Below are positions 27,001 to 64,000 of a DNA stretch of 64,000 nt, piece by piece (the first letter of the stretch is position 1; each line of letters begins with the position of its first letter). The stretch covers positions 14,880,001-14,944,000 of the forward strand of contig NC_042998.1 in NCBI RefSeq assembly GCF_006345805.1, read 5' to 3'. Origin of the DNA: Octopus sinensis (lineage: Eukaryota). The position numbers are program-made.

Positions 27001-30000
27001 AAAGCGAATTAAAAAAATCATCAAATTCGTACTGAACACCCTGTGTGTATGTGTGTGTGTGTGCGTGTGTGATTGCGCGTTTCAATATATATATATATAT
27101 ATTATATGTATATATATATGTAATATATATATATGTATATATATATATATATATGTATATATTATAATATATGTATATATATATATATATGTATATTATA
27201 ATATATATATATATATATGTATTAATGCCACAACTATGAGAGAGAATCCACTATGTGGACGCTCTTACGTAGATATAGATCCGCAAATGATTTAGTGTGC
27301 TAAATTTTTTCTTGAGAACAATTCTTAGTGGTCGAGTCCTTTGCGGATCTATATCTAGCGTAAGAGCGTCCACATAGTGGATTCTCTCTCATATTTGTGT
27401 ATTAATAATATTTACTGAATCTCAGTCTTTTATGCGGTAGGCCACTGGTGTTTAAATTGATGTATTAAATTAATATCCAATTTTTTCACCCTCATTTTGA
27501 CTTTAATTATATATATATATATATATATATATATATATATATATATAGAATATAGTTTTTTCACAATACGCACGCTACTCAAATAAAGGTCGACAGTTGT
27601 GCCCATGACTTAGTGTTTGCTTCTTTCATGAGTATGAGTAAGTATCTCATTTATTTCTTTTACCACATGTAGAAGAGAGGGCTCTTAGTAGCTGACTCTG
27701 AAATCGGTCCGATATGGTAATAATGGAATTTTTTAGAAATTTCTGTCGACCTTTATTCGAGTAGCGTGCGTATTGTGAAAAAACTATATGGTTAATGGAC
27801 AATATGTCCAATTTTTCGGCATATTTGGCATTAGAAATTTTTTTTCCCTTGCCCTCATTTATGAATTATATAAATTTAACCGTTAAAGGTATTTTTTAAT
27901 ATGCTGGCCATTGATAAAATTGTTTTCGAGAAAATATTTTTTTTCGAAAAGAATTTTATCCTCACATTTGATATATATATATATATATATATATATATAT
28001 ATATAAGAAAAAGGGACAGGCAAACAGGTTGCTTGACCGCATACCGAAAAAATAGAAATAGCAGTCAAGAATGCTTATTTCTATCAAAGTTGGACTCCGG
28101 GCATGACAAACCCTGTAATTCACATATGCAAAACAGCTTTCCATTGAAAAAGATTTATCATAGATTTATCAAATGCTACGTACCTCAAACCTTCTGACCA
28201 TGCGACATCAAAATATTTGAAGAAAAGCTAAACCTACATAGACGTTTGAATTTTGCCATGCGCATTACAAAAATAGTAATATAATAATAAATAATTTCTA
28301 TAAAGGCTTTTACCGAATTCTACCAGTAAATAATTGGGGTTTTTTTAAAAGCCTTTATAGAAATTATTTACTCTTATTATTATATTACTATTTGGATTTT
28401 TCACTCCCTTATGACAACCTAATTGTTCCCCATCTTATGGAACTATTTTTGTAATGCGCATGGCAAAACTTTGGAGGGAAGATTTACGAATTCAAACGTC
28501 TATGTTGGTTTAGCTTTTGCTCACTTTCTTCAAATATTTTGATGTCGCATGGTCAGAAGGTTTGAGGTACGTAGCATTTGATAAATCTATGATAAATCTT
28601 TTTCAATGGAAAGCTGTGCTGAAGAAGGATGTGAAATATATATACAATGTATATGAAATATATATCAAAAATATATATGGAATATATATTCAATATGTTT
28701 ATAATCCAGAAACATGATGTTCACAGATAACCGCCAGACTTCGTATTCGTTATCTATTCCTTCTGTTTTGCATATGTGAATTACAGGGTTTGTCATGCCC
28801 GGAGTCCAACTTTGATAGAAATAAGCATTCTTGACTGCTATTTCTATTTTTTCGGTATGCGGTCAAGCAACCTGTTTGCCTGTCCCTTTTTCTTATATAC
28901 AATATATATACTGAACTTTACAGAAGTTCCTGCCGGTAATCGGCTATATTTACATATCGAATTCTACCAGTAAATAATTGGGGTTTTTTTTAATAGCCTT
29001 ATAGAAATTATTTACTCTTATTATTATATATATATATATATATATATATATATATATATATATATATATATATATATATGTGTGTGTGTGTGTGTGTGTG
29101 TGTGTTGATAGAAATGGCAAGACAACAAAGGAATAAAAGAGACCTCGATATTGTTTAAATAGAGGAATTTATCTGTAAATATAATATGCGGCAATTATTC
29201 GGTAGCCATGATAAAACTCAGACTTTCGGATGTCGGAGCAGAAACCCACGCTGGCATCTCTTTAGTTATAAGGCCATCGAAAAAGATGCATTTTATATAT
29301 ATATGTACATATATATACATATTATACTACGTATTATATATTTATATTTTATATATATATGTATATCTATGTCTATTTCTCTCTCTCTCTCTCTCTCTCT
29401 CTCTCTCTCTCTCTATATATATATATATATATATATATAAAAATAAAAGTTATTAATATATTATAAATAATATATATATATAAATGAATATATATATGTG
29501 TGTATAAATATATATTCGTTAGTTCAACATCATATATATTATATATATTTATATTTATAATATATATATATATATATATATATATATATATATGTATACA
29601 CCCTACATACATACATTTATATATATATATATATAATATATATATATATATATATATATATATATATTATATGTATGTATTTATAAAGAGAGAGAGAGAG
29701 GGTTTGGGGACAAATAGTGCTTTCTGTGAGATTTAGCTGTTATTCTTGCTCGCCGAAGGACCATGCAGAAACTCCTTAATTGAATCAAATACACTTGAAT
29801 TGAGGCTCTGAGTAAAATGAACTTTCTACTGCAATGAAGAAGGAGAAGAAGAAGGAGGAGGAGGAGGAGAAGAAGAAGAAGAAATGTCGAACAAGAGGTG
29901 CGAATTGACTGAATAAATTGTTGTTAGTGGAAAGCTAACCTAGAAGTTATGCATTTAAATTAATCTTAAAAAGAAGACTTCAGAATAAGAAACATTTTAC

Positions 30001-63000: not shown

Positions 63001-64000
63001 CTTTTTGTGCCTAATAATTTAACACACTCGCCGGTAAAATTTCCACTTATTTCTTAATTTTATTTTTATTTTTATATCAAAATATAAAAATGAAAATAAA
63101 AATAAGAAATAAGTGGGAACTTTACCGGTGGTGTGTGTGTAAAATTATTAGGCACAAAAAGAAAATGACTCTCCCCAGACACAACAGCATATATATTGAA
63201 CTTTACAGAAGTTCCTGCCGGTAATCGGCTATATTTACATACCGAATTCTACCAGTAAATAATTGGGGTTTTTTTAAAAGCCTTTATAGAAATTATTTAC
63301 TCTTATTATTATATATATATATATATATATATATATATATATATATATATATATATATATATATATATATATATATATATATATATATATTCGTTTTGCA
63401 AGATTGGGGAACACAATGGAGTAAGTGGAGCAAGAACACATGGAAACGAAAAGTGTCAGCGAAGAGGTCACAGATGTGTGACGAAAGATTTCTGGACAAT
63501 GGACAGGTGTTAAAATAACAAAATAGCAGTAATTAACGAGTGAAAAAAAATATATACATATAGTGCGTGTGTTTATTTGGCAAAAAAATTTTTAATAAAA
63601 TGACCATACCGAAATACAATATATATATGTGTGTGTTTGTTTGTGTGTGGAAGACATAAGTCAACTACATAGACCCTAGTGTGTAAATGATACTCATTTT
63701 ATTAACCCTGAATATAAAGACGGACAAAATGCTGCCAACCATTTTGTCCGGCGTGTTGGTGAATCATCCAGCTCGCCGCTTTAATAAAAATGATGATAAC
63801 GAATATCTGATTTAGGTGATGAAAGGACATCAGTTTTGAGGGAAGGGTGGAGTAGTATATACCATCGACTAAGGGGCTTGACTAGTAATTTATTTTATCG
63901 AACCCAAAATGGTCAAAAGTAAAGTTGACCTCGGATGGTTTTGAATTCAGAACCAGAACAAATACCGGTTTCGAATTTTGGCATATGACCATCAGTTTCG

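What the first reader, a model, noticed from the sequence alone, without database searches (positions are those of the whole stretch)
27221..63312. A diverse family of hammerhead-bearing, (TA)n-associated fold-back elements (Penelope/retrozyme-like system)
Seen: about ten largely sequence-unrelated non-coding modules (27.6, 28.6, 29.2, 33.5, 48.0, 48.6, 48.9, 52.9, 53.9, 62.7 kb) share no ORF but converge on an HHR-type fold. They lie in or next to (TA)n tracts. Where a module is duplicated, the copies are head-to-head with the ribozyme-sense 3' ends pointing outward into the microsatellite. Several have an extra A or a mismatch at the base of stem II. Known: Penelope-like elements (PLEs) carry minimal type I HHRs in their pseudo-LTRs and often insert with an inverted partial copy, and non-LTR retrozymes are non-autonomous HHR repeats expressed as circRNAs in some metazoans. 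Inference: this genome hosts many non-autonomous HHR elements mobilised by a PLE-type RT that primes on AT microsatellites. About ten types in ~36 kb would imply a very large, mostly unannotated ribozyme load. I cannot confirm it is undescribed.
[Added by the scan's program, not by the reader: the finding's places include an assembly gap (unread letters, written N; its length is only estimated) at 51162 to 51261. Whether the letters on both sides are continuous or in frame is not known: test that first.]
Basis: partly seen in the sequence, partly recalled or inferred. Interest (0 to 1): 0.88.

Follow-up and report, generated by a model that had tools for sequence, protein, structure and literature searches.

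The report
TA-microsatellite repeat nest, no working hammerheads
This stretch is a cluster of unrelated non-coding mobile-element copies, many of them head-to-head pairs, inserted into (TA)n microsatellites; the proposed hammerhead ribozymes mostly do not hold up, so it looks like an ordinary example of a known kind of microsatellite-targeting element.

Summary
The region 27-64 kb holds 39 of the window's 47 (TA)n tracts and nine non-microsatellite inverted-repeat structures. Four of the nine abut a TA tract, against 0.9 expected (P about 0.009). Two non-palindromic repeat families, which I call F1 and E1, end exactly at (TA)n.

The hammerhead part is not real as stated. Rfam gave no hammerhead match at E<=10 in the whole region, in five narrow scans covering all ten sites, or in a 61-nt scan. 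My descriptors found no motif with a canonical core. Relaxed versions matched about as often as in shuffled sequence.

There are two exceptions. F1 (5 copies) keeps a PLE-type minimal-hammerhead scaffold, but its catalytic box is mutated in every copy. One site (62705) has a perfect box and a palindromic helix III but no helix I.

No RT or GIY-YIG ORF is present. Several features fit published Penelope-like behaviour: 5' truncation, partial tandem plus inverted copies at 53 kb, a monomer/dimer relation in E1, and a 15-nt flank duplication. Naiads in particular target (TA)n, lack canonical hammerheads and form tandem/inverted insertions.

A rival for the symmetric fold-backs is long-TIR DNA transposons of the plant SaTar/Micron type. 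Genome-wide copies could not be examined.

The parts
27085..27222 (.). (TA)n tract, imperfect, about 70 units. It is the left edge of the 27-29 kb array. Further tracts at 27508-27547, 27971-28005 and 29025-29079 separate the modules.
27229..27399 (.). M1: 171-nt palindrome with arms about 84% complementary. Its left end lies 11 nt from the (TA)n tract.
27550..27789 (.). M2: 240-nt element with 47-nt terminal inverted repeats (97.9%). Its left end is 3 nt from (TA)20. The ends are compatible with a TA duplication.
27990..28910 (.). M3: nested palindrome. Arm pairs are 27990-28136/28763-28910, 28133-28252/28489-28617, 28251-28277/28442-28468 and 28271-28312/28346-28393. The left end lies in (AT)17.
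28271..28393 (.). Centre of M3: a head-to-head pair made of the last about 42 nt (inverted) and the last about 80 nt (direct) of the E1 sequence.
28904..29024 (+). E1 monomer copy 1. It has no inverted arm, and its 3' end runs directly into (TA)27.
63189..63314 (+). E1 monomer copy 2, 97% identical to copy 1 over 177 nt including the tail. Its 3' end runs into (TA)40 (63310-63390).
62917..62943 (+). Left copy of a flank duplication. The 15 nt that follow (TA)40 at 63391-63405 also follow the upstream TA tract here, interrupted by about 12 extra nt. It looks like a target-site duplication bracketing M5+E1+(TA)40.
   Evidence: 6 of 2000 shuffles reach the alignment score; best of the other TA-tract flanks scored 19 against 22
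62970..63192 (.). M5: 223-nt palindrome (88%). It is flanked by CATAT on both sides by my reading. Rfam shows only sub-threshold plant-miRNA-like hairpin hits.
33397..33774 (.). IR33: element with 88-nt terminal inverted repeats (90%). Its interior holds (TTA)16. It is 106 nt from the nearest TA tract and shows no flanking duplication.
47920..48117 (-). The 3' end joins (TA)8 at 47905-47919 and the 5' end joins (AT)6 at 48118-48129. The hammerhead-like motif is at 48051-48004 with box CTGTAGA.
62251..62445 (+). F1 copy, the longest; its 5' limit is uncertain. The 3' end joins (TA)9. The motif TCTTTCTGTAGAAGAGCGTAGGCTCGAAACGTAAAAGA is at 62317-62354.
51507..51639 (+). F1 copy, 5'-truncated. TA-rich repeats lie on both sides. 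Box CGGTAGA. It starts 245 nt right of the assembly gap.
32153..32230 (+). F1 copy truncated inside the motif: the box and the helix I 5' strand are missing. It is also shortened at its 3' end. TA-rich repeats lie on both sides.
52834..53041 (+). The 3' end joins (TA)26. The scaffold is conserved but the box is CCGACAA.
48227..48807 (.). M4: 581-nt palindrome with 254-nt arms (96.5%) and a 73-nt centre. The ends are TA-rich and the right end lies in a TA tract.
53093..53611 (-). C53 left arm: 1.06 units of an about 490-nt unit, read on the minus strand. Its 3' end lies in (TA)26.
   Evidence: 53093-53120 is a direct repeat of 53584-53611; 53093-53266 is inverted to 53616-53788
53616..54166 (+). 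C53 right arm: 1.12 units of the same unit (53616-53676 repeated at 54105-54166), head-to-head with the left arm. Its 3' end is 6 nt from (TA)19.
62466..62819 (+). Single-copy module between two TA tracts.
48863..48869 (+). In the minimum-energy fold the box is sequestered by a 9-bp hairpin, and helix II has only 2 bp. It is not a hammerhead.
40030..40353 (-). Mariner-type transposon remnant. The ORF 40030-40248 matches the Mos1 HTH domain (E 1.1e-13). It is cut off by a SINE-like insertion, and its outer end abuts (TA)12 at 40354-40378.
51162..51261 (.). Assembly gap of 100 N. The flanks are unique sequence, and nothing described here spans it.

Best explanation
The region is a set of (TA)n microsatellite 'landing pads' that have collected insertions of several unrelated, non-coding, non-autonomous mobile elements. 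I think the most likely process is target-primed reverse transcription by a (TA)n-preferring Penelope-like (Naiad/Neptune-type) RT/GIY-YIG enzyme encoded elsewhere in the genome.

The proposed steps, all inferred, are as follows. The enzyme nicks in or beside a TA tract. The exposed TA-rich DNA end primes on a U/A-rich 3' end of the element RNA. Copying often stops early, giving 5' truncation, or jumps to a second template, giving a partial tandem (a pseudo-LTR). Because (TA)n is self-complementary, the other DNA end can prime a second copy. The result is head-to-head pairs whose 3' ends face outward into the microsatellite.

Shown here: the anatomy and its association with (TA)n. Inferred: the RNA intermediate and the enzyme.

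A ribozyme is not part of the mechanism as far as this window shows. One family (F1) carries what looks like a fossil of a PLE-type minimal hammerhead with a disabled catalytic box.
For: (1) F1. Five copies are present. In 3 of 4 close copies the same 3' end runs into (TA)n. The 5' ends differ (about 62251, 48117, 51507, 32153), and 3 of 4 are also bounded by TA-rich repeats on the 5' side.
(2) E1. Two monomers share one 3' end that runs into (TA)n. A third locus carries the last about 80 nt joined head-to-head to an inverted copy of the last about 42 nt. The inverted arm is therefore locus-specific and not a family TIR.
(3) C53. The two arms are each slightly more than one about 490-nt unit (1.06 and 1.12 units). 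They are permuted, head-to-head and interleaved (A B A' B' A'). A plain TIR element cannot give this arrangement. It equals 'partial tandem plus adjacent inverted copy'.
(4) A 15-nt flank duplication brackets M5+E1+(TA)40.
(5) In palindromes that touch a TA tract, the tract lies at the outer ends, not at the centre, and the adjacency exceeds chance (P=0.009).
(6) Arm identities range from 84% to 100%, as expected for insertions of different ages.
(7) Literature (passages read): Naiad PLEs prefer (TA)n, lack canonical hammerheads, are strongly 5'-truncated and form partial tandems with an adjacent inverted truncated copy. Putatively non-autonomous derivatives with pLTRs are described for the related Chlamys elements.
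(8) The F1 motif matches the PLE min-HHR features quoted: helix I of 4-5 bp, an unpaired base 5' of helix II, and a short palindromic helix III. It differs only in the box.
Against: No RT or GIY-YIG signal was found. 20 ORFs and 150 of 190 ORFs >=70 aa gave 7 weak or unrelated families plus one mariner HTH.

The 3' ends are not always fixed. The two C53 arms end at different unit positions, and F1 copy 32.2 is shortened at its 3' end.

M1, M2, M4, M5 and IR33 are symmetric and have no monomer copy in the window, so they look equally like long-TIR DNA transposons. IR33, M5 and two others (4 of 9) lie more than 100 nt from any TA tract.

The 30-40 bp 'tail' described for PLEs was not recognised. 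A mariner remnant abutting (TA)12 shows that TA-targeting DNA transposons also land here.

The flank duplication rests on a single case, and its left copy is interrupted. Only within-window copies could be compared, because no eukaryotic genome or repeat library was available.
Confidence: 0.4

Rival explanations
1. The symmetric fold-back modules are non-autonomous cut-and-paste DNA transposons with long terminal inverted repeats that are targeted to microsatellites. They would be an animal counterpart of the plant SaTar/Micron/MuTAnT elements, or Tc1/mariner-type MITEs using TA sites. They stack into arrays of unrelated elements separated by (TA)n.
For: M1, M2, M4, M5 and IR33 have symmetric inverted termini of 47-254 nt and total sizes of 171-581 nt. 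That lies within the ranges tabulated for guayule SaTars: TIRs of 40-250 bp and sizes of 380-1120 bp, with 62-95% flanked by microsatellites, in 'linear arrays of unrelated elements' (PMC5907723, passages read). The 27-29 kb stretch is such an array. M2's ends fit a TA duplication. A mariner remnant abuts (TA)12.
Against: This does not explain three things: the families without inverted repeats that show 5' truncation (F1, E1), the interleaved >1-unit arms of C53, and the E1 monomer/dimer relation. No MULE or other transposase was found apart from the single mariner HTH. Module ends resemble neither the mariner end nor each other. IR33 has no flanking duplication by my reading. SaTars were described in plants in what I read.
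Confidence: 0.25
2. One reading: the modules are hammerhead-bearing retrozyme/PLE derivatives, and the ribozyme processes the transcripts.
For: The F1 scaffold passes a min-HHR descriptor once one box mismatch is allowed: 2 hits, while 4 of 200 shuffles gave any hit. There is one compensatory pair in helix I between F1 and its distant relative. The box states in the two lineages are compatible with a canonical ancestor (my inference). Site 62705 has a perfect box and a palindromic helix III. The C53 arms look like slices of a tandem or circular template.
Against: No Rfam hammerhead hit appeared at any threshold tried. No motif has a canonical box together with helices I and II. All 4 F1 copies that retain the box carry changes at positions that are invariant in active hammerheads (recalled from the classical mutagenesis literature, not checked here). 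F1 copies are dispersed singles, whereas min-HHRs are reported to need a second copy nearby. The covariation is not significant (121 of 500 shuffles). The F1 covariance model finds nothing in the other modules. Three of the ten sites lack the box altogether.
Confidence: 0.07
3. No mobile element is involved. The palindromes arose at the DNA level by breakage or fork stalling at cruciform-prone (TA)n, followed by fold-back or template-switch repair.
For: (TA)n is self-complementary and the tracts here are long and dense. Several arm pairs are 100% identical. M3 is a multi-level palindrome with indels bounded by short direct repeats.
Against: A hairpin-capped break should place the TA tract at the centre of the palindrome, but here the tracts are at the outer ends and the centres are not TA. 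F1 and E1 are dispersed copies tens of kb apart with shared ends.
Confidence: 0.1
4. The perfectly identical palindromes (C53, the outer arms of M3) are assembly artefacts.
For: Arm identity is 100% over 334 nt and over 137+93 nt. The window is a scaffold with a gap. Craig et al. note that such tandem/inverted structures cause assembly problems.
Against: Comparable palindromes exist with 84-96% arm identity and with indels (M1, M4, M5, IR33), and these cannot be artefacts of one read. C53 has 98-99% segments and is interleaved rather than a simple fold-back.
Confidence: 0.08

Closest known systems
Naiad (and Neptune) Penelope-like elements and their non-autonomous derivatives (Craig et al. 2021, PMC8557442)
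   Same: Both show a preference for (TA)n microsatellites, strong 5' truncation, partial tandems (pseudo-LTRs), an adjacent inverted truncated copy giving inverted repeats, no canonical hammerhead, and occurrence in many invertebrate phyla.
   Different: No RT/GIY-YIG sequence is present here, and no link to an autonomous element could be tested. The units are short (about 125-490 nt). The 30-40 bp tail was not seen. The 3' ends are not always fixed.
PLE minimal hammerheads (Cervera & de la Pena 2014, PMC4209133) and metazoan non-LTR retrozymes (Cervera & de la Pena 2020, PMC7229834; Li et al. 2026 preprint, abstract only)
   Same: The F1 motif has helix I of 4-5 bp, an unpaired base 5' of a 4-bp helix II, GAAA, a 2-nt palindromic insert in helix III and a UA cleavage-site dinucleotide. 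C53 is a partial tandem of an about 490-nt low-GC unit.
   Different: The catalytic box is non-canonical in every F1 copy. F1 copies are single rather than tandem. The C53 unit has no hammerhead and is longer than the 170-400 nt given for retrozymes. No Rfam match was found.
SaTar / Micron / MuTAnT microsatellite-targeted MULE derivatives of plants (Valdes Franco et al. 2018, PMC5907723; MuTAnT paper seen in a search listing only)
   Same: Both involve small non-coding elements with long TIRs, flanked by microsatellites (TA for Micron and MuTAnT), which cluster into arrays of unrelated elements.
   Different: Those are plant elements tied to Mu-like transposases through TIR similarity. Here no such transposase or TIR match is available, some structures are nested or interleaved, and two families have no TIR at all.

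Membership tests
Hammerhead ribozyme (type I, including PLE min-HHR) | Conserved catalytic box CUGANGA together with GAAA | tested here: not met
   F1 boxes read CTGTAGA (twice), CGGTAGA and CCGACAA. Of the ten sites, 5 have a canonical box, 3 have none and 2 have a degenerate one (and my reading). The 53.9 kb site lacks GAAA.
Hammerhead ribozyme (type I, including PLE min-HHR) | Helices I, II and III in register around the core | tested here: not met
   With a perfect box there were 0 hits. Site 62705 has only 1 bp of helix I. Only F1 has all the helices, and its box is defective.
Hammerhead ribozyme (type I, including PLE min-HHR) | Match to the Rfam hammerhead covariance models | tested here: not met
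   No hammerhead hit at gathering score or at E<=10.
Hammerhead ribozyme (type I, including PLE min-HHR) | Covariation supporting the helices | tested here: inconclusive
   4 sequences gave 1 compensatory pair and 88.9% of cells paired; 121 of 500 shuffles scored as high.
Hammerhead ribozyme (type I, including PLE min-HHR) | Self-cleavage | not testable with these tools
   This needs in vitro transcription of monomer and dimer constructs.
Metazoan non-LTR retrozyme | Tandem repeats of about 170-400 bp, each carrying a type I hammerhead, expressed as circRNA | tested here: not met
   F1 copies are dispersed singles. C53 is a partial tandem of an about 490-nt unit without a hammerhead. RNA expression is not testable here.
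Penelope-like element insertion (autonomous) | RT plus GIY-YIG endonuclease ORF | tested here: not met
   No RVT or GIY-YIG family was found in 20 ORFs or in 150 of 190 ORFs >=70 aa.
Penelope-like element insertion (non-autonomous derivative) | Partial tandem (pLTR) with an adjacent inverted 5'-truncated copy | tested here: met
   C53; E1 head-to-head pair.
Penelope-like element insertion (non-autonomous derivative) | Variable 5' truncation with a shared 3' end | tested here: met
   F1 has four different 5' ends, and 3 of 4 close copies share the 3' end. The exceptions are F1 copy 32.2 and the C53 right arm.
Penelope-like element insertion (non-autonomous derivative) | (TA)n target bias (Naiad/Neptune) | tested here: met
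   4 of 9 structures and 6 of 7 family ends lie at TA tracts; P=0.009 for the structures.
Penelope-like element insertion (non-autonomous derivative) | 3' end similar to an autonomous PLE of the same genome; 30-40 bp tail | not testable with these tools
   No genome or repeat library was available. I did not recognise a tail.
SaTar/Micron-type microsatellite-targeted DNA transposon | Terminal inverted repeats with microsatellite flanks, in arrays of unrelated elements | tested here: inconclusive
   TIR-like arms are present in M1, M2, M4, M5 and IR33. However, M3 is nested, C53 is interleaved, and 4 of 9 structures lie more than 100 nt from a TA tract.
SaTar/Micron-type microsatellite-targeted DNA transposon | TIR similarity to an autonomous Mu-like element; 8-11 bp duplication in copies outside microsatellites | tested here: not met
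   No MULE transposase domain was found. IR33 has no duplication and M5 has only CATAT (my reading). The genome-wide test was not possible.
Tc1/mariner MITE | Termini related to a mariner element; TA duplication | tested here: not met
   Module ends scored no better than shuffles against the mariner remnant's end. A TA duplication cannot be judged inside TA-rich flanks.

The most novel reading that the evidence does not exclude
F1 and its distant relative would be a lineage of (TA)n-targeting non-autonomous Penelope-type retroelements caught in transition from ribozyme-bearing 'retrozyme' to ribozyme-less SINE-like element. The helices of a minimal hammerhead are kept, but the catalytic box has decayed differently in two sub-lineages. 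Alternatively, and less likely, the altered box is a still-active core variant. On this reading the whole nest also shows that a self-complementary microsatellite lets both ends of a break prime on the same RNA, which would be the long-sought reason why Penelope-like insertions come as head-to-head pairs.
Probability: 0.12. Interest if true: 0.6.

Novelty: new member of a known kind. Interest (0 to 1): 0.3.

Why it matters
If the Penelope-type reading holds, this window is a compact natural record of how such elements insert. It shows monomers, head-to-head pairs, partial tandems and a target duplication side by side, all at a self-complementary microsatellite. The insertion mechanism of these elements is still undefined (Craig et al. 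2021 call for an in vitro system). The result also cautions that a CUGAUGA...GAAA pair seen by eye in AT-rich, palindrome-rich DNA is mostly chance: the implied 'large unannotated ribozyme load' is not supported. If the fold-backs instead turn out to be DNA transposons, they would extend microsatellite-targeted stacking of elements beyond the plant examples I read.

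Tried and rejected
Rfam at gathering score gave only a 5S-like hit, far from the finding.

Rfam at E<=10 gave nothing but microsatellite or hairpin look-alikes of miRNA and snoRNA families. The 53.9 kb CTGATGA scores 26 bits against C/D snoRNA models whose cut-off is 70, so I rejected it.

My first descriptors required a helix III hairpin with a loop of >=3 nt. They would therefore have missed PLE min-HHRs. After reading Cervera & de la Pena 2014 I rewrote the descriptor. It was shaped after I had seen the F1 motif, so its shuffle statistics flatter F1. One search ended with an index error in its last setting; one search repeated it with the bound fixed.

The reversed-sequence control (2 and 6 cores) was lower than the real counts (11 and 24).

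ARAGORN found no tRNA.

PDB phmmer with the mariner-like ORF gave no match at E<=0.01, whereas Pfam did.

A first guess at the ORF behind the HTH_48 hit (10 ORFs) was wrong. Regular expressions for recalled mariner motifs found nothing. A looser set pointed to 40030-40248, which one search confirmed.

MAFFT did not place the gap in the flank duplication sensibly, so I used a local alignment instead.

- Any eukaryotic genome, Dfam or Repbase comparison, and therefore copy numbers, consensus ends and links to autonomous elements.
- Protein homologue searches and the metagenome and viral collections (closed).
- Genome contigs (prokaryotes only), which I did not use.
- Supplementary files (closed). 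The supplementary HHR figures of Cervera & de la Pena 2014 and supplementary file S1 of Craig et al. 2021 could show whether the F1 motif or these families are already catalogued.
- The organism, which was not determined.

Papers. Passages only: PMC8557442, PMC4209133, PMC7229834 and PMC5907723. Abstract and outline only: 10.64898/2026.07.22.740005. Search listings only: MuTAnT (PMC4486113) and pineapple MITEs (PMC8449440). Akagi 2001 (Micron) was seen only as a reference entry.

I make no claim that these elements are absent from print. Searches were about the kinds of element, not about this genome.

Full report
WHAT THE WINDOW IS. The window is AT-rich (GC 0.28-0.45 per 2 kb) and full of microsatellites (86 TRF rows) and interspersed repeats. 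No open frame outside a microsatellite exceeds 175 aa. It reads like intergenic or intronic DNA of a repeat-rich eukaryote. I did not determine the organism.

THE ASSEMBLY GAP. The gap at 51162-51261 has unique sequence on both sides and touches none of the features below. Continuity across it cannot be shown. Every structural inference here lies wholly on one side of it.

THE HAMMERHEAD CLAIM: RFAM AND BOX COUNTS. Rfam at gathering score finds only a 5S-like sequence at 5940-6055. At E<=10 the region 27000-64000 gives 129 sub-threshold hits. None is a hammerhead family, and nearly all are microsatellites or hairpins that resemble miRNA precursors. They gave 26, 8, 8, 3 and 3 hits, again with no hammerhead. 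A 61-nt scan of the best candidate gave nothing at all. The box CTGANGA occurs 28 times in the window against 23.4+-4.5 in shuffles. Three of the ten sites (27.6, 29.2, 48.6 kb) have no such box.

THE HAMMERHEAD CLAIM: DESCRIPTORS. My descriptor for type I and type III hammerheads found nothing. Relaxing it to one box mismatch, or one unpaired base at the foot of helix II, gave 11 and 24 cores against 7.0+-2.8 and 17.1+-4.2 in shuffles. After reading the published features of PLE minimal hammerheads I wrote a second descriptor. It asks for helix I >=4 bp, an optional unpaired base 5' of helix II, helix II >=4 bp, GAAA, a 0-6 nt palindromic helix III, and U followed by a non-G. With a perfect box it finds nothing. 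Folding six candidate stretches gave no hammerhead-like junction, with z-scores between 0.40 and -2.42; the two most negative come from local hairpins.

TWO PARTIAL EXCEPTIONS. The first is family F1. With one box mismatch allowed, the min-HHR descriptor hits 62322-62349 (+) and 48041-48014 (-), both copies of F1. Only 4 of 200 shuffles gave any hit. With two mismatches it adds the F1 copy at 51517 and a distant relative at 52911, plus two unrelated hits (12106, 33470), making 6 against 0.77+-0.96 expected. In the string TCTTTCTGTAGAAGAGCGTAGGCTCGAAACGTAAAAGA (62317-62354) the elements are:
- helix I of 5 bp;
- one unpaired A;
- a 4-bp helix II with a 4-nt loop;
- GAAA;
- a 2-nt palindromic insert;
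- a UA cleavage-site dinucleotide.

These are exactly the traits quoted for PLE ribozymes. The box, however, reads CTGTAGA (twice), CGGTAGA or CCGACAA in the four copies that retain it. From recall of the classical mutagenesis work, which I did not check here, changes at these positions abolish activity.

Between F1 and its relative there is one compensatory pair in helix I, which is not significant (121 of 500 shuffles). A covariance model of the scaffold recovers the five family members (E from 1.5e-17 to 3e-6) and nothing else below E=1.7. The other modules therefore do not share it. I read F1 as a probable fossil of a PLE-type hammerhead, or at worst a coincidence with a chance of about 2-10%. 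I do not read it as a working ribozyme.

The second exception is 62705-62744. It has a perfect box and an 8-nt palindromic helix III but only 1 bp of helix I, and 7 of 100 shuffles give such a hit.

WHAT IS REALLY THERE. Inverted repeats are abundant and real:
- M1, 27229-27399 (84%).
- M2, 27550-27789 (47-nt arms, 97.9%).
- M3, 27990-28910, a nested palindrome with outer arms 98.6-100% identical and three extra segments in the right arm.
- IR33, 33397-33774 (88-nt arms, 90%).
- M4, 48227-48807 (254-nt arms, 96.5%).
- M5, 62970-63192 (88%).
- C53, 53093-54166, described below.

The first 27 kb of the window has only microsatellite self-matches and one pair from a tandem-repeat family. Of the 47 TA tracts, 39 lie in 27-64 kb. 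4 of 9 inverted structures have an outer end within 10 nt of a tract against 0.92 expected (P=0.009), and 6 of 7 ends of F1/E1 copies are within 1 nt.

Two families have no inverted repeat:
- F1. Its copies at 62.3, 48.0 and 51.5 kb share one 3' end that runs into (TA)n, but they begin at different points. The copy at 32.2 kb begins inside the motif and is also shortened at its 3' end. Three of the four are bounded by TA-rich repeats on the 5' side too.
- E1. Its two monomers (28904-29024, 63189-63314; 97%) run into (TA)27 and (TA)40.

The centre of M3 is a head-to-head pair of the last about 80 nt and the last about 42 nt of the same E1 sequence. For E1, then, the inverted arm is a property of the locus and not of the family.

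THE 53 KB COMPLEX. C53 is the most informative structure. 53093-53266 is inverted to 53616-53788, and 53206-53609 is inverted to 53763-54166. 53616-53676 recurs directly at 54105-54166, and 53093-53120 recurs directly at 53584-53611. Each arm is therefore slightly more than one about 490-nt unit (1.06 and 1.12 units). The arms start and end at different unit positions and meet head-to-head. Both outer ends lie at TA tracts. A plain TIR element cannot give interleaved inverted repeats. 'Partial tandem plus adjacent inverted copy' can.

A FLANK DUPLICATION. The 15 nt that follow (TA)40 at 63391-63405 also follow the upstream TA tract at 62917-62943, with about 12 extra nt inserted. 6 of 2000 shuffles reach the alignment score. 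This is what a long target-site duplication around M5+E1+(TA)40 would look like.

NO ENZYME IN THE WINDOW. 20 ORFs and 150 of 190 ORFs >=70 aa gave no reverse transcriptase or GIY-YIG domain. The only real hit is a Mos1-type HTH (E 1.1e-13) in 40030-40248 (-), confirmed. It belongs to a mariner remnant cut off by a SINE-like insertion, and its outer end abuts (TA)12. The ends of the modules resemble neither this remnant nor each other.

COMPARISON WITH WHAT IS KNOWN. Craig et al. 2021 (passages read) describe Naiad Penelope-like elements. [quoted passage not shown] They lack canonical hammerheads, prefer (TA)n, and are strongly 5'-truncated. They form partial tandems, often with an adjacent inverted truncated copy. 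Putatively non-autonomous relatives with pseudo-LTRs are described for the related Chlamys elements. This matches F1, E1 and C53 without any need for a ribozyme.

The symmetric fold-backs fit equally well the plant SaTar/Micron elements of Valdes Franco et al. 2018. Those are small long-TIR MULE derivatives flanked by microsatellites and stacked in arrays of unrelated elements.

A break-and-fold-back origin at cruciform-prone TA tracts is less likely, because the tracts sit at the outer ends of the palindromes and not at their centres. An assembly artefact is possible for the two perfect palindromes but not for those with 84-96% arm identity.

VERDICT. The anatomy is confirmed: unrelated non-coding modules at (TA)n, with head-to-head duplicates. 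The hammerhead convergence is not. One family carries a disabled hammerhead-like scaffold, and one site carries a box without helix I. The most likely mechanism is (TA)n-targeted, target-primed reverse transcription of non-autonomous elements by a Penelope-type enzyme encoded elsewhere (confidence 0.4). Microsatellite-targeted long-TIR DNA transposons are the main rival for the symmetric modules (0.25). Either way this is a new member of a known kind, and whether it is already catalogued could not be checked.

Noticed in passing
window 5940-6055 (-): This is a 5S rRNA-like sequence scoring 63.7 bits against a cut-off of 38. Helix I is partly unpaired and 4 model positions are missing near the 3' end. 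It could be a 5S gene variant, a pseudogene or a 5S-derived repeat.
   Followed up: no
window 57110-57889 (4.3 units of 183 nt); also 38387-38732, 59808-60918, 4598-4825, 22748-22923, 25778-26065: This is a repeat family of about 183-190-nt units that occurs both in short tandem arrays and as dispersed or inverted copies (85-96% identity). The relaxed descriptor made one weak hammerhead-like hit in it (38294-38247, one box mismatch, helix I 3 bp), which is at chance level. ARAGORN finds no tRNA in it.
   Followed up: partly
window 31709-32070, 39329-39795, 49243-49705, 52145-52571, 58738-59140, 61836-62170: This SINE-like family has two conserved halves separated by a variable internal microsatellite (ACAT/CA/TA runs). 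Several of the window's TA tracts are these internal repeats, so the family may itself seed the 'landing pads'.
   Followed up: partly
window 40030-40353 (-): This is a mariner-type transposon remnant (Mos1 HTH domain, E 1.1e-13). It is truncated after about 75 codons by a SINE-like insertion, and its outer end abuts (TA)12.
   Followed up: yes
window 44229-44699: This is a 204-nt tandem repeat (2.3 copies, 97%), each unit carrying a long (ATA)n run. It lies next to a 250-nt (TA)n tract at 44891-45139.
   Followed up: no
window 20797-22037 and 40794-43077; also 55189-55378: These are two dispersed segments 89-92% identical (20797-21131 with 40794-41129; 21661-22037 with 42703-43077). None of their ORFs gave a Pfam match. 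This is an unclassified repeat.
   Followed up: partly
window 28618-28762: This 145-nt segment is present in only one arm of an otherwise 100% identical palindrome. By my reading it is bounded by a 4-nt direct repeat (CTGT). It is either a later insertion into one arm or a deletion from the other.
   Followed up: partly
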